Below are positions 2,810 to 49,168 of a DNA stretch of 64,000 nt, piece by piece. Numbering within the stretch: the first letter of the stretch is position 1; every line of letters starts with the position of its first letter. The notes beneath the pieces are model-generated. The model was not told the origin of the DNA and searched no databases. It worked only from the letters and a program-made list of their open reading frames with translations. The DNA is from a virus, in the IMG/VR virus record IMGVR_UViG_3300040770_000357. The stretch is one strand, 5' to 3'. Position numbers and translations under genes: made by a program.

Positions 2810-3212
2810 AACATTTGACGAGCTTTATGAGGAATTTTTCAACGAGAACAACGGTAAGTTTGATGTCAAAAAACTTACCGATATGTTATCTAGTGTCAAA
2901 ATATTAGACACTTTAGATGACGATATGATTAATGCTATGGATGCGACACTTGGTGAACCAGACTCAGTAGATTATTATATTGAAGATGACTTATATTATG
3001 AGAAAAGAACTTGGAATACTGATAAGGGTATCTTAGTTAAGATAATCATAAGAGATGAACCACCAGCAGAAATGTTAGATGAAGGTCTAGAACAAAGTTT
3101 CAGTGAACCAATGACTACTCAAGAATTATTAGATATAGCTCTTGAGTCTGAAGATTATGAATCAGCGGCTTATTATAGGGATATAATTAAAAACGAAAAA
3201 AAGAAAAAATAA
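2802..3212 (+). CDS. Acidic protein with C-terminal UVR (UvrB/UvrC) motif
   Basis: LLDIALESEDYESAAYYRDII. Confidence 0.65.
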   Translation: MDKTFDELYEEFFNENNGKFDVKKLTDMLSSVKILDTLDDDMINAMDATLGEPDSVDYYIEDDLYYEKRTWNTDKGILVKIIIRDEPPAEMLDEGLEQSFSEPMTTQELLDIALESEDYESAAYYRDIIKNEKKKK

Positions 3213-3278
3213 TATAAGAAAAACCAGAGTAAAATTTGGTTTTTCTTTTTTTTTGTCGTAATTTTGGTAAAAAATATT

Positions 3279-3923
3279 ATGAAAGTAAAAGCCCGTGTTC
3301 ATATGTTGGAGACTAAGAAAAGTGACAACGTTTCTGATATTGTATTATCGCAAGATGCCACCAAATTAGCATTTATCAATGTTTTAACAACAGGTGATAC
3401 CCAACCTTGTACAAATCAAGAACTGTATGTTACCGCATACGACCTATATACATTAGGTGATTACCTATTAGACTTTAAGAATAACAAAGTTGTCTTATAT
3501 GACACTATTAATTTTAGTAAAGTTAATGTAGACGACTATAAAAAAATAATTGCAACGACTGACGAAACCATTACTACTGATGGTCAATACTACCTACCAG
3601 ATAGTTTTATTGAAACATATGTTAGTAGATACAATGAGGGTAGACAAATGAATAAAATAAATGTTATTTTAGTAATGACTTGTACTAATTGTGGTCAACA
3701 CTACTGTGATAATTATGGTTGTCGTGGGCATAAAGATAAACTTGAGACACATAGGATTTTCCCAATTAAGGCTGAGTCAAATGAGGATGAATTGTTAGCC
3801 TATGCTTCATATAAAGCAAATAAGTATAGTGTTGATAATGAAGATTTGGTTCGATTAACATTTGCAAAATCTGAATTTGTTAAAGACTACTGGTTTAACA
3901 AATTCAAACAATCTAATGTCTAA
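3279..3923 (+). CDS. Hypothetical phage protein
   Basis: Long ORF after terminator; shares KKIIATTD-like segment with 10005-10745. Confidence 0.65.
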   Translation: MKVKARVHMLETKKSDNVSDIVLSQDATKLAFINVLTTGDTQPCTNQELYVTAYDLYTLGDYLLDFKNNKVVLYDTINFSKVNVDDYKKIIATTDETITTDGQYYLPDSFIETYVSRYNEGRQMNKINVILVMTCTNCGQHYCDNYGCRGHKDKLETHRIFPIKAESNEDELLAYASYKANKYSVDNEDLVRLTFAKSEFVKDYWFNKFKQSNV

Positions 3924-4098
3924 ACATCCACCACAACCAACTTGGACAGGTAAAGATAAACCAAAAAAAGATAAAGATACGCCAGATTTACCAATAGATG
4001 GTTATATTAACTATGGTTTATTGGTTGGGGTTATCATCGCTTTTATATTAATTAAAAAAAATAAACATGTATTATGTAATTCAAGAAAATGTTTTTAG
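3916..4098 (+). CDS. Mini-protein with PID-CTERM-like sorting signal
   Basis: LPIDG + hydrophobic helix + KK basic tail. Confidence 0.5.
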   Translation: MSKHPPQPTWTGKDKPKKDKDTPDLPIDGYINYGLLVGVIIAFILIKKNKHVLCNSRKCF

Positions 4099-4843
4099 AG
4101 AACACAATTATAGTAAAATTTTTGATGTTTTAACTAAATTAGATTTACCGTTCGAAGTGGTTTCAATACCACCAAACACCGAGGATTTAACCATTGAAAG
4201 TGATAGAACAGATATATTTCCTTTTGGTAGCGTTAGGTTAGCAAATATATCGGCTAAAAATAATTGGAATCCTGGCTCTTTTTTTGGTAATAACCATGAT
4301 TATTCAGTGTATAGTGAATATTATCGTGATAACCTATTAAATTGGGGTTGTGATGTACAAGATATTACTGATAACATTGATTGGTTACCAAACGAAATGA
4401 AATTCATTAGACCATCTAAAGATTCTAAAGTCTTTAATGGTGCTGTTTATACTAAAATTAAATGGGACGATATAGTTTTATTAGTCAATGGTAGGTATGA
4501 TGGTGTTATTCCAGATATTGCAATTCAAGTTAATTCAGTTAAAAAAATATATAAAGAAGCTAGGGTATGGATAGTTGGTGGTAAGGTAATCACTAGTTCA
4601 TATTATAAATATAATGAAAATGTAGTCTATATAAGTGATGTTGAACCAGATGGGCTGGCATTTGCCCAATCTATGGTCGATATATACCAAGTTGCTGATT
4701 CATTCGTAATGGATATATGTTTGACACCAGATGGTTGGAAAATAGTTGAAATCAATTGTGTGAATTGTTCTGGTTTTTATGAGGGTGATTTACAAAAATT
4801 AGTGATTGCGTTAGAGGATTTCTTTAACCCAGAAAAAAGTTAA
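4067..4843 (+). CDS. ATP-grasp protein (R2K clade / DUF4343-like)
   Basis: FIRPSKDSKVF, EARVWIVGGKVITSS, VMDIC...WKIVEINC..CSGFY. Confidence 0.75.
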   Translation: MYYVIQENVFREHNYSKIFDVLTKLDLPFEVVSIPPNTEDLTIESDRTDIFPFGSVRLANISAKNNWNPGSFFGNNHDYSVYSEYYRDNLLNWGCDVQDITDNIDWLPNEMKFIRPSKDSKVFNGAVYTKIKWDDIVLLVNGRYDGVIPDIAIQVNSVKKIYKEARVWIVGGKVITSSYYKYNENVVYISDVEPDGLAFAQSMVDIYQVADSFVMDICLTPDGWKIVEINCVNCSGFYEGDLQKLVIALEDFFNPEKS

Positions 4844-10745: not shown

Positions 10746-11036
10746 GTTATGGTGTTAAGGAATATACTTGGGGTTATTGTAATCCTAGCTTGTCTTAGTA
10801 GTTTTATAAGATTCGGTTATTCAATTTATCCATTTGTTATAATTAACCTACAGATAGTTATGTTAATCATTCAAAATAAATATGTTAAGCAATAACAGTG
10901 GGATTAAAAACATTATTTAGTGCAATTTGTATCATATTTGTATTAAAAAGAGTAATATAACGCACTTTAAAAAATAAATTAAAAATAATTGCAAAAAGAC
11001 TTGCTTTATTAAAATAAGTGTAGTATATTTGCAGAA

Positions 11037-44991: not shown

Positions 44992-46920
44992 ATGAAAGAA
45001 GAAAAAATAAAAATTGGTGATATTGTAGAAGGTAAACTACAATTTAACCAAAGTGGTTCAGCCTACTTGGTAAGCACAGATTTACCAAAAGACATATATT
45101 TGAATAAGCATAACACAAATAAAGCGTTACATTTAGATATAGTAAAAATAAAAGTGATTAGCGGTAATGGTCGTTCAATCGAAGGTGAGGTTACTGAGAT
45201 AGTAACAAGGTTTAAAGATGAATTTGTTGGGTCATTACAAATAACCCCAAAACATGCATTTTTTGTTGCAGATAGTAATAAGATTTCAGTTGATTTTTTC
45301 ATACCATTAGACAAACTGATGGGTGCTACTGATGGTCAGAAAGTTATTGTTAAACTAACTACATGGAAAGACACGGCAAAGAATCCTAACGGTGAAGTCG
45401 TAAAAATACTTGGTGATGCTGGTGAGTATGAAACAGAAATACATGCAATCTTAGAGGAATATGGTTTACCATACGATTTTGAAGAAGAAGTTCTTTTAGA
45501 GTCAGAAGCAATTTCGTCAGAGATTACACAATCTGAGATAGATAAACGTAGAGATATGAGAGGTATCTTGACCTTTACGATTGACCCAGTTGATGCAAAA
45601 GATTTTGATGATGCGCTAAGTGTTGAATGGATTAATGGTGAGTTATTTGTTGGGGTACATATTGCCGATGTATCACATTATCTAGAACAAGACACTGAAT
45701 TAGATAAAGAAGCATATACCAGAGGAACTTCGGTTTACTTAGTTGATAGATGTATCCCTATGCTTCCAGAGAGGCTATCTAATGGATTATGTAGCCTTAG
45801 ACCAATGGAAGACAAGCTATGTTTTTCAGCAGTCTTTAAACTGGATAGAAAAGGTAAAGTATTAGAAGAATGGTTTGGTAAAACTGTCATTAATTCTGAC
45901 CATAGGTTTTCATATGAAGAAGCTCAAAAAATAATTGAGGGTGATTCTAGTTTTATGACAACAAACATTAGGGAACTAAGTTCTGCAATTAGGGAATTAG
46001 ATAAAATTGCGAAACAAATGCGTAAAGAACGTTTGATTGAAGGTTCTATCTCATTTGATAAACAAGAGGTTAAGTTTCAGTTAGATGAAGGTAATAAACC
46101 AGTTGGGGTTATTTTAAAGACATCTAAGGATGCCAATAAATTAATCGAGGAATATATGTTATTAGCTAATAAACATGTTGCTCAATTTGTTAATAGAAAA
46201 GGATTGCCAATGGTAAATCGTTCACACGATAAACCTAATGAAGTTAAACTAGATTCCCTTAAGGAATTTATTAAACAATTTGGATATGTTATCAAGACAG
46301 ATAATCCAATGGAAATCACACGCACACTTAATAAGTTATTGACAGATGTTAAGGGTTCACCAGAATCTAGTATGATTGAAACGTTAGTAATAAGAACTAT
46401 GCAGAAAGCGAATTACTCTACAAAAAATATAGGACATTATGGTTTAGGGTTTAAAGATTACGCTCATTTCACAAGTCCAATTAGGAGATATCCAGATGTA
46501 ATCGTTCATAGGTTATTAGCTACATATTTAAATGAAAAATCTTCACCTAATCTTGGGAAATTAGAAAACAAATGCTTACATTTGTCGGAACGTGAGAAAA
46601 AAGCGCAAAAAGCAGAGAGAGAGTCTATCAAATACATGCAATGTATTTATATGTCTGACCATATTGGTATGGTTTATAAAGGAATTGTAACATCTATTGC
46701 TGATTTTGGAATTTTTGTTGAAATAAAAGAAACTAACTGTGAGGGATTTGTTAGGTTAGCTGAAATAGATGGTGATACGTTCACTTCTGACCCAGCTAAT
46801 TATTGTGTTAAAGGGTTTAATACTGGTATTACTATAAGTCTTGGTGATGAAGTTGTTATTGTGGTTAAATCAGTTGATATTGAAAAGAAAAATATTAATT
46901 TAACATTATTAAAATTATAA
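44992..46920 (+). CDS. rnr: Ribonuclease R
   Basis: TIDPVDAKDFDDA, GTSVYL, AHFTSPIRRYPD, C-terminal S1 domain. Confidence 0.95.
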   Translation: MKEEKIKIGDIVEGKLQFNQSGSAYLVSTDLPKDIYLNKHNTNKALHLDIVKIKVISGNGRSIEGEVTEIVTRFKDEFVGSLQITPKHAFFVADSNKISVDFFIPLDKLMGATDGQKVIVKLTTWKDTAKNPNGEVVKILGDAGEYETEIHAILEEYGLPYDFEEEVLLESEAISSEITQSEIDKRRDMRGILTFTIDPVDAKDFDDALSVEWINGELFVGVHIADVSHYLEQDTELDKEAYTRGTSVYLVDRCIPMLPERLSNGLCSLRPMEDKLCFSAVFKLDRKGKVLEEWFGKTVINSDHRFSYEEAQKIIEGDSSFMTTNIRELSSAIRELDKIAKQMRKERLIEGSISFDKQEVKFQLDEGNKPVGVILKTSKDANKLIEEYMLLANKHVAQFVNRKGLPMVNRSHDKPNEVKLDSLKEFIKQFGYVIKTDNPMEITRTLNKLLTDVKGSPESSMIETLVIRTMQKANYSTKNIGHYGLGFKDYAHFTSPIRRYPDVIVHRLLATYLNEKSSPNLGKLENKCLHLSEREKKAQKAERESIKYMQCIYMSDHIGMVYKGIVTSIADFGIFVEIKETNCEGFVRLAEIDGDTFTSDPANYCVKGFNTGITISLGDEVVIVVKSVDIEKKNINLTLLKL

Positions 46921-46959
46921 ATAGTTGCATCTACCAATATAGTTAAGTATATTTGTAGA

Positions 46960-47450
46960 AGAAATAAAGGCTAAACATTGAACCTTTGTGAATATATTGC
47001 CTTAATGTAGTTCTGAATTGGCTGAACTATTATTCACATAAAGATATCACCCACGAATTGACGTGGGGTTATTAAGAACGGCTGGAAGGTGATACGGATG
47101 CTGAAGTGTACGAACGTGAGTACTTAGTCCGAGCACTGTAATAATAGAGTAATCTTGAGCGTGCCCTCTCCCTTTGAGAAAGGAGAAAGTATCTGAACAA
47201 CCCTAATAAGGTTGGGTAACACAGTGTACAGGTAACGAATGAGCGACTATCCGTGAGGACGTTGGGCTATTAGTTAAACATACATAAGAAAAGGTGTCAA
47301 AGCACAGCTCTATGCTAAGATGTATGTAAATGGAAGTAAGCTTTAGGCTTCTAATAGTTTTCTCAGCAAGTAGTTAATTAACTGCGTGACCCTACTCTTG
47401 TCATGAACGTCAGATTGCAAATGTGACAGTAGTGACAAGAAAGAGGGTGC
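46960..47450 (+). ncRNA. Large structured RNA of unknown family
   Basis: ORF-free ~490 nt after promoter; >10 helices visible by eye. Confidence 0.7.
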
Positions 47451-47475
47451 TAATAAATTATTTAAAAATATTGTT

Positions 47476-47793
47476 ATGACAAAAAGTAACGCAAGGGTAA
47501 TAGCGAATTTAATAACCAATGAACAATTGGTTGGGACATTTAAAGCAGCTAAGGTTTCAATAACTAATTGGGATGTACCTAGTGTTTGTAATAAAGGTTT
47601 ATCAAAAGGTATTGCTTGGAACATCTTAGCGAGTGATTTCGATGTATCTAAAGAATATAATTCACTCGCTAAGACAAATATGGTTAGAGAGTTTAGTGAT
47701 TTCATACCAGACTATTTAAAACCGAAAAAAAAAGAACCTAAACCAGATTTGTATCTTTCGCATCAAATCCCAAATTTTAAGAACTATGAGTAA
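47476..47793 (+). CDS. Hypothetical protein
   Basis: ORF overlapping smpB start. Confidence 0.65.
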   Translation: MTKSNARVIANLITNEQLVGTFKAAKVSITNWDVPSVCNKGLSKGIAWNILASDFDVSKEYNSLAKTNMVREFSDFIPDYLKPKKKEPKPDLYLSHQIPNFKNYE

Positions 47794-48229
47794 GTTAATT
47801 GTTAAAAACAAACGTGGTTATTTTGAATATGAAATACTAAAAAAAGAGGTTGCTGGTATACAATTAGTTGGTTCAGAGGTTAAATCAATTAAAAGTGGTA
47901 ATGTATCCATATCGGAAGCGTATTGTTACATAAATAATGATGAGATATTCATAAAAGGGATGCATGTCGCTGAACATAAAGAGGCTGGAACTAAATTGAA
48001 TCATGAACCAATTAGGAATAGGAAGTTATTGTTAAAGAAGAAAGAAATTATTGGTCTTCGTGAAAATGTTTCAGTGAAAGGCTTTACAATTATACCTTTG
48101 AGTATTATATTATCTGACACTGGATATATAAAGCTTGAGATTGGCCTTGGAAAAGGTAAGAATCTATACGATAAATCAAAAGCTATCAAGTTACGTGATT
48201 TAGACCGAGATTTAAAAAGAAATGTATAA
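47786..48229 (+). CDS. smpB: SsrA-binding protein
   Basis: AGIQLVGSEVKSI, RKLLLKKKEI, GKGKNLYDK. Confidence 0.93.
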   Translation: MSKLIVKNKRGYFEYEILKKEVAGIQLVGSEVKSIKSGNVSISEAYCYINNDEIFIKGMHVAEHKEAGTKLNHEPIRNRKLLLKKKEIIGLRENVSVKGFTIIPLSIILSDTGYIKLEIGLGKGKNLYDKSKAIKLRDLDRDLKRNV

Positions 48230-48271: not shown

Positions 48272-49168
48272 ATGAGAAAAATTTCAATAATGGCTGGTTC
48301 ATACACCAGAAGAGAAAGTGAGTCGTTTACCCAATATTTAAAAGATGTCGCTGAGATAAAATTACTTACAGTTGACGAAGAAGTTGAATTAACTAGAAAA
48401 ATTAGTCTTGGTGATTCAAAAGCTATTGATGAGTTAGTTAAAAGGAATTTAAGGTTTGTTATTAGTGTAGCTAAACAATATGCATCTTCTAAAGTTTCTC
48501 TTGAGGATTTAGTAAATGAAGGTAATATTGGTCTTATTATGGCAGCTGGAAAATTTGATAGTACAACGGGTAATAAATTCATTACGTTTGCTATTTGGTG
48601 GATTCAGAAATTAATCCTTGAATATATAAGCAAATTTGGTTCCACTGTTAGACTACCATCTAACAAGATAAATGGTGTCAGCCGTTTGGATAAACGAGTT
48701 AGAGAACTAGAACAAAAGTTTGGTAGAGCAGTCGATATTGAGGAAATTATTTCTGAGTTTGGTAGTGGTGATACGGATGGTGATAACTATAGTCAATTAG
48801 AATTATTGAGGTCATTCAGTATTCACTCATTAGATAGGCCAACAAATGTTAGTGATGATAGTAGTAATAGTGGAACTTTGGTTGAATTATTGGTTTATGA
48901 TGATGACTTAATGTCAGACCATTTAGTTACTGGTGGTGATGTTAAGGAAAAAATAACTTTATTATTGGAAAAACTTAAGCCTAGAGATAAAGATATTATG
49001 ATTGCGCTATTTGGTTTAGATGGTTTTCCACCTAGAAACCTTGAAGAAGTAGCTAATTCTGTAACACCAAAGTTAACACGTGAAATGATTAGACAGATAA
49101 GAATTAAATCACTTAAAAAATTAAAACTTGTTTTAGATAAGGCTATGATTACTGAAGATGTATTGTAA
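48272..49168 (+). CDS. Sigma-70 factor, Bacteroidetes primary-sigma-like (no region 1.1)
   Basis: NLRFVISVAKQY, DLVNEGNIGL, WWI, SLD, region 4 TREMIRQI. Confidence 0.9.
   Translation: MRKISIMAGSYTRRESESFTQYLKDVAEIKLLTVDEEVELTRKISLGDSKAIDELVKRNLRFVISVAKQYASSKVSLEDLVNEGNIGLIMAAGKFDSTTGNKFITFAIWWIQKLILEYISKFGSTVRLPSNKINGVSRLDKRVRELEQKFGRAVDIEEIISEFGSGDTDGDNYSQLELLRSFSIHSLDRPTNVSDDSSNSGTLVELLVYDDDLMSDHLVTGGDVKEKITLLLEKLKPRDKDIMIALFGLDGFPPRNLEEVANSVTPKLTREMIRQIRIKSLKKLKLVLDKAMITEDVL

What the first reader, a model, noticed from the sequence alone, without database searches (positions are those of the whole stretch)
46960..47450. Second large structured RNA (~490 nt) between rnr and smpB, matching no family I recognise
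Seen: starts with the same GTATATTTG.AGAAGAAATAAAGG as the 11-kb RNA. Helices include GTGAATA/TATTCAC, TATCAC/GTGATA, CGGA/TCCG, GCACTGT/ACAGTGT, GGCTATTAG/CTAATAGTT, ACATACAT/ATGTATGT and CTTGTCA/TGACAAG, plus a 12-nt palindrome AGTTAATTAACT (possible dimer site). It has fragments reminiscent of group I intron cores (AATCTTGAGC; GCGACTA able to pair with TAGTCC with a bulged C, but with strands in reversed order) and of HEARO/omega RNA (GGATGC...AGTCC..GCACTGT), with no IscB and no host exon. Inference: new ornate RNA or rearranged ribozyme, possibly linked to SmpB/RNase R.
Basis: partly seen in the sequence, partly recalled or inferred. Interest (0 to 1): 0.75.

Follow-up and report, generated by a model that had tools for sequence, protein, structure and literature searches.

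The report
New ornate phage RNA family member
The gap between the phage's RNase R and SmpB genes holds a real, roughly 490-base folded non-coding RNA; it belongs to a large, unnamed RNA family seen only in viruses of Bacteroidota bacteria, and its job is still unknown.

Summary
Window 46966-47453 (+) is ORF-free, richer in G+C than the window as a whole (0.40 against 0.31) and sits behind a Bacteroidota-type promoter (TTG-N20-TATATTTG). That promoter explains the 24-mer shared with the RNA at 11 kb.

It is not an orphan. It is an expanded member of an RNA family with at least 143 distinct copies on IMG/VR viral contigs (4-373 kb). I found none in bacterial chromosomes and no Rfam match. The core has eight helices plus one pseudoknot, with strong covariation: 94% of cells pair against 35-48% in slid controls, and 26 pairs show compensatory changes (0/500 shuffles).

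The one cultured carrier is the crAss-like Cellulophaga phage phi14:2. There the locus matches a published abundant, early and persistent "long non-coding RNA" of unknown function.

It is not a tmRNA, group I intron or HEARO RNA. The palindrome is an ordinary hairpin stem.

About a third of full-length copies abut tRNA, tRNA-like or tmRNA genes. SmpB/RNase R adjacency occurs only here.

Best reading: a stable, trans-acting RNA of the phage's tRNA/tmRNA module. Its target is not known.

First readers of this scan had already noted look-alike stretches in six other windows.

The parts
44992..46920 (+). rnr (RNase R, 642 aa), the upstream neighbour. It is not a conserved partner of the RNA.
   Evidence: Pfam RNB 3.5e-110, plus CSD2, OB_RNB and S1. 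No other family copy has rnr within 4 kb.
46925..46955 (+). Bacteroidota-type promoter: TTG (46925-46927), a 20-nt spacer, then the -7 box TATATTTG (46948-46955). The inferred start lies near 46960-46963.
   Evidence: The same TTG-N~20-TATATTTG arrangement stands before many + strand genes of the window. The 24-mer shared with 11023 covers this box plus the first ~15 transcribed bases. The start site is inferred, not measured.
46966..46987 (+). Hairpin A: stem AAAGG/CCTTT, an inner U-G and A-U pair, and the nearly invariant loop region TAAACATTGAA.
   Evidence: nhmmer match of the family profile, 46965-47050, E 2.8e-7. The inner A-U pair covaries to G-C in 5 of 90 copies.
46988..47037 (+). Hairpin B: stem GTGAATA (46988-94) / TATTCAC (47031-37), with a variable interior.
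   Evidence: Family helix hpB: all 5 pairs have compensatory changes among 90 copies. Coordinates.
47036..47046 (+). Conserved junction ACATAAAGATA.
   Evidence: Nearly invariant in the family. It occurs once in the 64-kb window, with 0.13 expected.
47045..47094 (+). Hairpin C: stem TATCAC / GTGATA. Here it carries a ~38-nt insert (47051-47088). In the family consensus it is a 6-bp stem with a GUAA tetraloop.
   Evidence: hpC has 6 of 6 pairs with compensatory changes. The insert is found only in this copy.
47095..47131 (+). Copy-specific insert closed by CGGA/TCCG.
   Evidence: Present in the constrained fold. There is no counterpart in the family consensus.
47133..47227 (+). Helix D (GCACTGT 47133-39 / ACAGTGT 47221-27). 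It encloses hairpin E (47167-47186, loop CTTTGAGAAA) and a variable hairpin.
   Evidence: Helix D has 7 of 7 pairs with compensatory changes and hairpin E has 4 of 4. These pairs top an unbiased mutual-information scan. TTGAGAAAGG occurs once in the window.
47238..47243 (+). Probable counterpart of the conserved AATGAG junction. Here it is displaced 10 nt from helix D.
   Evidence: Assigned by the order of motifs. This is the least certain assignment.
47244..47359 (+). Copy-specific ~116-nt insert. It contains GGCTATTAG/CTAATAGTT (47265-73 / 47351-59) and ACATACAT/ATGTATGT (47278-85 / 47320-27).
   Evidence: Constrained fold. No other family member shares it.
47360..47370 (+). TTCTCA (47360-65), the 3' strand of a pseudoknot with the hairpin E loop TGAGAA (47175-80), followed by the conserved GCAAG.
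   Evidence: 98% of cells pair among 90 copies, with one compensatory event, TGAAAA/TTTTCA in L125. TTCTCAGCAAGTAGTTA occurs once in the window, with 0.02 expected.
47370..47385 (+). Hairpin G: GTAGTT-AATT-AACTGC.
   Evidence: Family helix hpG: 6 of 7 pairs have compensatory changes. The loop is variable, up to ~90 nt in relatives.
47386..47453 (+). Hairpin H. The lower stem is nearly invariant (GTGACCCTACT / AGAGGGTGC, with bulges). The upper stem is CTTGTCA / TGACAAG. The conserved tail is TAA.
   Evidence: nhmmer match 47360-47457, E 3.6e-13. The upper stem is compensated relative to CTTATAT/ATATAAG in L062. The lower stem is conserved in sequence.
47476..47793 (+). ORF105, an orphan protein gene 22 nt after the RNA. 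It overlaps the smpB start by 8 nt.
   Evidence: No Pfam or PHROGs family. It is unrelated to the ORFs upstream of smpB in relatives and to phi14:2 gp010.
47786..48229 (+). smpB. It is followed by a sigma-70 gene (48272-49168), and no + strand terminator is predicted between the RNA and these genes.
   Evidence: Pfam SmpB 6.2e-47 and Sigma70 r2, r1_2 and r4. Terminator scan.

Best explanation
Window 46966-47453 is the gene of a large structured non-coding RNA. It is an unusually long copy (about 490 nt; family median about 340) of an unnamed RNA family carried by phages of Bacteroidota.

Shown:
- A common core in a fixed order: hairpins A, B and C; helix D enclosing hairpin E; a pseudoknot between the E loop and a downstream strand; then hairpins G and H.
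- Nearly invariant junctions and covarying stems.
- At least 143 distinct copies on viral contigs, and none found in bacterial chromosomes.
- The family locus in phage phi14:2 matches the long intergenic region that a published study found transcribed rightward, abundant from the earliest time point, and not declining later.
- In other phages the gene often abuts the 3' end of a tRNA-like gene or the 5' end of a tmRNA gene.

Inferred:
- In this phage, host RNA polymerase transcribes it from its own TTG-N20-TATATTTG promoter.
- Where it sits inside tRNA/tmRNA arrays, the tRNA-processing enzymes (RNase P, RNase Z) cut it out as a stable RNA.
- It then acts in trans. Its invariant junctions and lower hairpin H would bind a very conserved partner in translation or tRNA/tmRNA metabolism, possibly the ribosome or a processing enzyme. 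This would belong to the same accessory module as the phage tRNAs, tmRNA, SmpB and RNase R.

The identity as a family member is close to certain. The proposed target is a guess from gene context.
For: Non-coding and G+C-enriched:
- This copy.
- Family lengths show no multiple-of-3 bias (33/29/28), and 80 of 90 copies are richer in G+C than their locus.

Family membership:
- 143 unique elements and 90 unique full-length copies.
- The family profile hits the window at both ends.
- Each core motif is unique in the window and in family order.

Structure:
- 13 of RNAalifold's 22 predicted pairs show compensatory changes.
- The count of structure pairs: 94% paired against 35-48% in slid controls, and 26 compensated pairs against 10.3 +/- 2.3 in shuffles, 0/500.
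- The highest mutual-information pairs are the proposed base pairs.

Phage-only distribution:
- The 19-mer AAATGAGTTCTCAGCAAGT occurs on 3 MAG contigs among 185,579 species genomes.
- No BLAST match in 401 genomes of the class Bacteroidia.

Expression:
- phi14:2 carries a copy at 2910-3362.
- That interval matches the g004-g005 junction reported as an abundant, early, persistent rightward lncRNA (bioRxiv 10.1101/2020.03.07.982082).

Gene context:
- 29 of 90 full-length copies abut a tRNA T-arm, a tRNA-Leu-like gene or a tmRNA 5' end.
- 14 of 131 copies have a tmRNA within 300 nt downstream on the same strand, with at least 5 distinct tag types. Rfam confirms eight of these at 74-94 bits.
- In this window the neighbours are rnr and smpB.
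Against: - No partner, target or activity has been observed.
- The link to trans-translation is partial. In the jumbo phages G003, G410 and G411 the RNA and the tmRNA lie about 100 kb apart.
- Of the six RNA-bearing records at least 90% complete in which I searched for tmRNA, three showed none at E <= 1e-12.
- The complete relatives G001 and G002 have a tmRNA but no copy of this RNA at BLAST level.
- No other copy lies near rnr or smpB.
- Clustering with tRNA and tmRNA genes could reflect only shared promoters and processing.
- The patchy distribution would equally fit an anti-defence or selfish element.
- Expression of this particular copy is untested.
Confidence: 0.55

Rival explanations
1. 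Anti-defence RNA. The abundant folded RNA would bind and neutralise a host immunity protein, for example a nuclease aimed at tRNA or tmRNA. It would act beside the phage's own tRNA/tmRNA genes.
For: - Patchy, accessory distribution among close relatives: present here and in G003, G410 and G411, absent in G001 and G002.
- The genomic site varies and there is no fixed protein neighbour.
- Expression in phi14:2 is early and persistent.
- It lies next to tRNA and tmRNA genes.
Against: - No resemblance to tRNA or tmRNA that a decoy would need.
- Stretches of 14-19 nt stay nearly invariant across very different phages. That fits a slowly evolving partner better than a fast-evolving defence protein.
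Confidence: 0.15
2. A self-assembling ornate RNA in the manner of ROOL or GOLLD. The RNA would form a homo-oligomeric particle, and the particle would be the functional unit.
For: - It shares their setting, from my own knowledge of those families: large, phage-borne, often beside tRNA genes, with a conserved core and variable peripheral hairpins.
Against: - No Rfam match to GOLLD or ROOL.
- No conserved palindromic loop that could make a kissing contact. The palindrome here is an ordinary hairpin stem that is not palindromic in most relatives.
- The RNA is smaller, down to 261 nt.
Confidence: 0.12
3. A ribozyme, self-processing or acting on tRNA-like precursors. It could also be a selfish RNA gene that spreads between phage genomes.
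For: - A pseudoknotted core with invariant junctions and bulges.
- It abuts tRNA and tmRNA ends exactly: 0-3 nt after a tRNA-like 3' end and 2-7 nt before tmRNA in L360, L329 and L336.
- It occurs in unrelated phage lineages, crAss-like and jumbo, and as tandem copies in L141 and L170.
Against: - No match to any known ribozyme class in Rfam.
- The exact ends are explained more simply by RNase P and RNase Z.
- I did not look for terminal repeats or target-site duplications.
Confidence: 0.1
4. A cis-acting 5' leader that controls ORF105-smpB-sigma in this phage.
For: - There is no predicted terminator and no second promoter between the RNA and ORF105/smpB. Read-through is therefore likely.
Against: - Across the family the downstream element varies: unrelated ORFs, tRNA-like genes, tmRNA or a terminator hairpin.
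- Relatives have smpB without the RNA.
Confidence: 0.05
5. A divergent tmRNA, or a decayed group I intron or HEARO/omega RNA.
For: - It lies next to smpB and rnr.
Against: - ARAGORN and all Rfam tmRNA, group I and HEARO models give nothing at E <= 10.
- There is no acceptor stem or T-arm.
- Relatives, including G003 which has this RNA, carry a separate genuine tmRNA.
- There is no similarity to those tmRNAs.
- The group I and HEARO-like strings lie in copy-specific inserts.
- There is no IscB gene and no split host gene nearby.
Confidence: 0.02

Closest known systems
The abundant 'long non-coding RNA' from the g004-g005 intergenic region of Cellulophaga phage phi14:2 (Drobysheva et al., bioRxiv 10.1101/2020.03.07.982082)
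   Same: It is a homologous gene with the same ordered conserved blocks and helices. It has the same orientation relative to its neighbours and the same host phylum.
   Different: - The published work reports only the transcript level and leaves the function open. It describes no family, structure or distribution.
- phi14:2 is a ~100-kb crAss-like phage, whereas this window comes from a jumbo-phage relative.
- The two copies have different inserts.
- I equated the paper's region with 2905-3589 from gene order, not from the paper's coordinates.
GOLLD and ROOL RNAs (Rfam RF01998, RF03087)
   Same: From my own knowledge of those families: they are large, ornate RNAs of unknown biochemical function carried by phages and prophages, often beside tRNA genes. 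This family has the same setting.
   Different: - No sequence or structure match.
- Smaller: 261-526 nt for most copies.
- Different host phylum.
- No sign of conserved kissing loops.
tmRNA (RF00023)
   Same: Both are phage-encoded stable RNAs with pseudoknots. The two are often adjacent and co-oriented. In this window the RNA lies beside smpB and rnr.
   Different: No tRNA-like domain, no tag reading frame and no model match. The two RNAs coexist in the same genomes.
Stable RNAs of unknown function in the tRNA gene cluster of phage T4 (species 1 and 2; recalled from my own knowledge, not tested here)
   Same: They are non-tRNA stable RNAs embedded in a phage tRNA array and presumably released by tRNA-processing enzymes.
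   Different: They are much smaller and unrelated in sequence, and their host is unrelated. This is a functional analogy only.

Membership tests
Unnamed Bacteroidota-phage RNA family (phi14:2 g004-g005 lncRNA type) | The conserved blocks occur in a fixed order: TAAACATTGAA loop, ACATAAAGATA, CTTGAGAAAGG loop, AATGAG, TTCTCAGCAAGTAG, GTGACCCTACTCTT, AGAGGGTGCTAA. | tested here: met
   nhmmer hits both ends of the window copy (E 2.8e-7 and 3.6e-13). The central motifs are each unique in the window and in the right order. AATGAG is displaced by 10 nt.
Unnamed Bacteroidota-phage RNA family (phi14:2 g004-g005 lncRNA type) | Helices A, B, C, D, E, G and H, plus the pseudoknot between the E loop and the downstream strand. 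| tested here: met
   All are present at the expected places in the window. Helices B, C, D and upper H differ from the consensus by compensated changes. Family covariation.
Unnamed Bacteroidota-phage RNA family (phi14:2 g004-g005 lncRNA type) | Transcribed as a stable RNA. | not testable with these tools
   Shown only for phi14:2, by a published RNA-seq study. No RNA run holding this window was listed. A 336-nt contig of a relative occurs in one freshwater metatranscriptome, which is weak evidence.
tmRNA (RF00023 and the permuted forms) | A tRNA-like domain (acceptor stem with 3' end, T-arm) and a tag reading frame. | tested here: not met
   ARAGORN finds no tmRNA in the window. Rfam gives nothing at E <= 10. 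No similarity to eight phage tmRNAs.
Group I intron (RF00028) | A P3-P9 core with a guanosine-binding P7, inserted in a host gene with exons. | tested here: not met
   No Rfam match for this copy or a compact one. The flanking genes are intact. The look-alike strings lie in copy-specific inserts absent from the consensus.
HEARO / IscB omega RNA (RF02033) | A match to the covariance model and an adjacent IscB or HNH-type nuclease gene. | tested here: not met
   No Rfam match. The neighbours are rnr, ORF105 and smpB. The family has no conserved protein neighbour.
GOLLD / ROOL | A match to the covariance model. | tested here: not met
   No match at the gathering score or at E <= 10. Only the genomic setting is alike.
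Bacterial RNase P RNA (RF00010, RF00011) | Conserved regions CR-I to CR-V and the P4 helix. | tested here: not met
   No Rfam match. By eye the universal CR-I and CR-V sequences are absent. I considered this family only because the neighbours are RNase P substrates.

The most novel reading that the evidence does not exclude
This is a new class of functional phage RNA. It would be either a ribozyme or a ribosome-, tRNA- or tmRNA-binding RNA, spread among crAss-like and jumbo phages of Bacteroidota. It would work with the phage's tRNA/tmRNA/SmpB module to take over or protect translation during infection.
Probability: 0.3. Interest if true: 0.9.

Novelty: categorically new. Interest (0 to 1): 0.74.

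Why it matters
Large, highly conserved, pseudoknotted RNAs without a known function are rare, and past examples such as RNase P, tmRNA, OLE, GOLLD and ROOL have repaid study.

- The family is abundant in viral metagenomes.
- It crosses unrelated phage lineages while keeping 14-19-nt stretches almost invariant.
- It has a cultured, tractable carrier, phi14:2 on Cellulophaga baltica. There the RNA is already known to be among the most abundant phage transcripts, so its function can be tested directly.
- The second unexplained phi14:2 'lncRNA' appears to be a tmRNA. Together with the genomic linkage found here, this points to an RNA-based translation module in crAss-like and jumbo phages.

Tried and rejected
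- **Rfam.** Gathering and E <= 10 searches on the window, on a compact member and on phi14:2 gave only noise.
- **BLAST of the window copy against 50,697 phage records.** No match. Only consensus-like members found phi14:2.
- **Synteny through SmpB and RNase R relatives.** 53 loci were fetched. No copy of the RNA lay in them. The 416-451-nt gaps upstream of smpB in L015 and L016 are a minus-strand gene. The single L048 hit was in coding sequence.
- **Stop-codon recoding.** Rejected.
- **Mimicry of a host RNA.** The Flavobacterium hits to GTGACCCTACTCTT lie in a conserved protein-coding frame (..GDPTLS..NESQERMGLV.., probably purL by my recollection), so they are coincidence.
- **Cognate pairing between the RNA and its adjacent tmRNA.** Duplex energies of cognate pairs did not differ from non-cognate pairs, and the method is uninformative at this length.
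- **ORF105.** It shows no similarity to phi14:2 gp010 or to the ORFs upstream of smpB in relatives, and has no Pfam or PHROGs family.
- **Sequencing runs.** No RNA holder was listed for the window; the source appears to be an ice metagenome. One freshwater metatranscriptome holds a 336-nt contig of a relative.
- **Own genome.** None is held for this window.
- **Search by DNA alignment in the genome search.** Not accepted by the tool.
- **The Minerva preprint.** It could not be opened.
- **Covariance model.** I did not build one, because the core exceeds the size the tool calibrates in time. A profile HMM plus explicit pair counts were used instead.

Full report
**What is at the site.** The 555 bases between rnr (44992-46920; Pfam RNB 3.5e-110) and ORF105/smpB (47476-47793, 47786-48229; Pfam SmpB 6.2e-47) have no open frame. 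All six frames carry TAA, TAG and TGA, so no stop-codon recoding helps. G+C is 0.40 over 46960-47450, against 0.31 for the window. The window is an AT-rich phage fragment. Its RNase R and SmpB have 42-75% identical relatives on IMG/VR contigs of up to 368 kb. The DNA appears to come from an ice metagenome.

**The shared 5' 24-mer.** GTATATTTGNAGAAGAAATAAAGG occurs at 11023 and 46947 only, with 0 expected by chance. It begins with TATATTTG, preceded 20 nt upstream by TTG. This is the -33/-7 arrangement of Bacteroidota promoters, as I know it from the literature. The same arrangement stands before many + strand genes of the window. The shared string is therefore the promoter plus an A-rich initial transcribed stretch, and its last bases already belong to hairpin A. 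It is not an RNA motif common to two RNAs. The family profile finds only one copy in the window.

**Known families excluded.** Rfam 15 gives nothing for the region at the gathering score or at E <= 10, and nothing for a compact relative. ARAGORN finds no tmRNA. Four related jumbo phages have a genuine tmRNA elsewhere (44-72 bits, three above the cut-off). Among them is G003, which also has this RNA. The RNA is therefore not the phage's tmRNA.

**Finding relatives.**
- Loci fetched through SmpB and RNase R did not contain the RNA.
- A BLAST of whole related genomes gave three collinear hits in G003. Reading that locus showed the same 5' hairpin, the same TTCTCAGCAAGTAGTTAA and CGTGACCCTACTCTT blocks, and a 3' hairpin with compensated changes, CTTGTCA/TGACAAG against CTTATAT/ATATAAG.
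- A profile HMM recovered 164 elements in 156 loci. These are 143 unique elements, of which 90 are unique full-length copies of 261-863 nt with a median near 340.
- Host contigs range from 4 to 373 kb.
- Lengths show no multiple-of-3 bias, and 80 of 90 copies are richer in G+C than their locus.

**Structure.** The family has, in order:
- hairpin A, with a nearly invariant loop region;
- hairpin B;
- the junction ATAAAGATA;
- hairpin C, with a GUAA tetraloop;
- helix D enclosing hairpin E and a variable arm;
- AAATGAG;
- TTCTCA, which pairs with the E loop TGAGAA to form a pseudoknot;
- GCAAG;
- hairpin G;
- hairpin H, whose lower stem is nearly invariant and carries bulges;
- the tail UAA.

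RNAalifold on 20 compact members found 13 of its 22 predicted pairs with compensatory changes. With the full hand-drawn structure (55 pairs, 9 helices), 94.0% of cells pair against 35-48% when partners are slid. Twenty-six pairs have changes on both sides, against 10.3 +/- 2.3 in shuffles, with 0 of 500 shuffles reaching any observed measure. On 90 sequences every pair of helices B, C, D and E shows compensation. The highest APC-corrected mutual-information pairs are the proposed base pairs. The pseudoknot is conserved (98% paired) but rests on a single compensatory event, in L125.

**The window copy.** It keeps every core element (coordinates in 'parts'). It has also gained inserts inside hairpin C, between C and D, around E, and about 116 nt between AATGAG and TTCTCA. 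No other member shares these inserts. The 12-nt palindrome is hairpin G. In relatives the same stem closes loops of up to ~90 nt and is usually not palindromic, so a dimerisation role is not indicated.

**Distribution.**
- The 19-mer AAATGAGTTCTCAGCAAGT occurs on only three MAG contigs among one genome for each of 185,579 species.
- BLAST of 401 genomes of the class Bacteroidia found nothing.
- Among 50,697 deposited phage genomes, only Cellulophaga phage phi14:2 (Crassvirales) has it, at 2910-3362. That stretch is annotated only with tiny antisense ORFs.
- Among close jumbo relatives it is patchy: present in G003, G410 and G411, with a partial hit in G004, and absent at BLAST level from the complete G001 and G002.

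[quoted passage not shown] By gene order the first region is the family copy. The second holds a tmRNA: ARAGORN places it at 4031-4500 with tag GSSVQKLAMVA, and Rfam scores it 46.0 bits against a cut-off of 47, E 1.4e-16. A freshwater metatranscriptome holds a 336-nt contig of another relative, which is weak evidence.

**Context.**
- No protein family is a regular neighbour. The largest flank cluster covers 26 of 143 copies, and annotated representatives of the ten largest clusters are generic phage proteins.
- RNA genes are regular neighbours. Nine full-length copies start 10-16 nt after a T-arm motif, that is 0-3 nt after a tRNA-like 3' end.
- Thirteen have a tRNA-Leu-like gene within 200 nt downstream, and 11 have a tmRNA 5' end within 200 nt downstream. 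In all, 29 of 90 have at least one such neighbour.
- ARAGORN finds a tmRNA within 300 nt downstream on the same strand for 11 of 131 copies; tmRNA 5' motifs raise this to 14, with at least five distinct tag types. Rfam confirms eight at 74-94 bits, plus a permuted tmRNA in L338.
- With one tmRNA per 100-370 kb genome, chance adjacency would be well under one case.
- In jumbo phages, however, the two RNAs lie ~100 kb apart, and some complete carriers show no strong tmRNA.
- Adjacency to rnr and smpB is unique to this window.
- No + strand terminator separates the RNA from ORF105-smpB-sigma.

**Interpretation.** This is a member of a new, widespread, phage-restricted RNA family. Its architecture is proven by covariation, and one member is an abundant infection-long transcript. 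Three things suggest a stable trans-acting RNA released by RNase P and RNase Z that works on a very conserved partner in translation or tRNA/tmRNA metabolism:
- the near-invariance of junctions and of lower hairpin H across phages whose proteins are 60-75% identical;
- the exact abutment to tRNA and tmRNA ends;
- membership in the accessory 'translation RNA' island.

That last step is inference from context. Anti-defence, self-assembly and catalysis remain open.

**Earlier notes of this scan.** First readers had flagged look-alike stretches in six other windows. They noted the same TGTGTTG/CAACACA helix, the TTGAGAA/TTCTCAG pseudoknot and one 'upstream of the tmRNA' case. These agree with my results but are not independent tests.

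Noticed in passing
L310 (Cellulophaga phage phi14:2, KC821624) 4031-4502: The second abundant, unexplained 'lncRNA' region of phi14:2 (g005-g006 junction) appears to be a phage tmRNA. ARAGORN gives tag GSSVQKLAMVA. Rfam tmRNA scores 46.0 bits, one bit under the cut-off, with E 1.4e-16. It overlaps tiny annotated ORFs.
   Followed up: partly
L062:1650-1830 (G003, just downstream of its copy of the RNA): Another conserved non-coding block of ~180 nt. It is shared at 94% with L151 and L098, and in parts with L176, L143, L139, L147, L111 and L126. It may be a further RNA family of the same islands.
   Followed up: no
L314, L165, L379, L166, L311, L152, L122, L128 (flanks of the RNA): tRNA-Leu-like genes (5' GTCAGGTGGCGGAATTGGTAGACGC..., 3' ...GGTTCGAATCCTGTCCTGAC) with long internal inserts flank the RNA on either side. 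ARAGORN misses most of them. They resemble the insert-bearing tRNA-like genes noted at 8.6-9.2 kb of this window.
   Followed up: partly
L141:3858-4674 and L170:8279-9095: Two tandem, head-to-tail copies of the RNA family.
   Followed up: no
L048:4934-5927: In one relative, rnr is followed by a 241-aa minus-strand ORF and then by a second copy of the rnr 3' end (S1-domain tail). This looks like an insertion that duplicated the gene's end, as homing-endonuclease-type insertions do.
   Followed up: no
L338:3502-3726: A circularly permuted tmRNA (Rfam RF04321, 60.3 bits) lies on a viral contig. ARAGORN places the tmRNA start about 25 nt downstream of a copy of the RNA.
   Followed up: no
L174, L146, L118, L121 (about 60 nt upstream of the RNA): A recurrent conserved block, AATAGCTAAGCTGTGTAAAGC...CTGATAAACTGTGTGAAGC, sits directly before the RNA in several contigs. 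It may be another small structured RNA or a processing signal.
   Followed up: no
G001, G002, G003, G004 (relatives of this phage): These jumbo phages encode a full-length tmRNA (44-72 bits) far from their smpB and rnr genes; in G001 the tmRNA is near 59 kb and smpB/rnr lie around 300-310 kb. The window's own tmRNA, if any, lies outside the 64 kb.
   Followed up: partly
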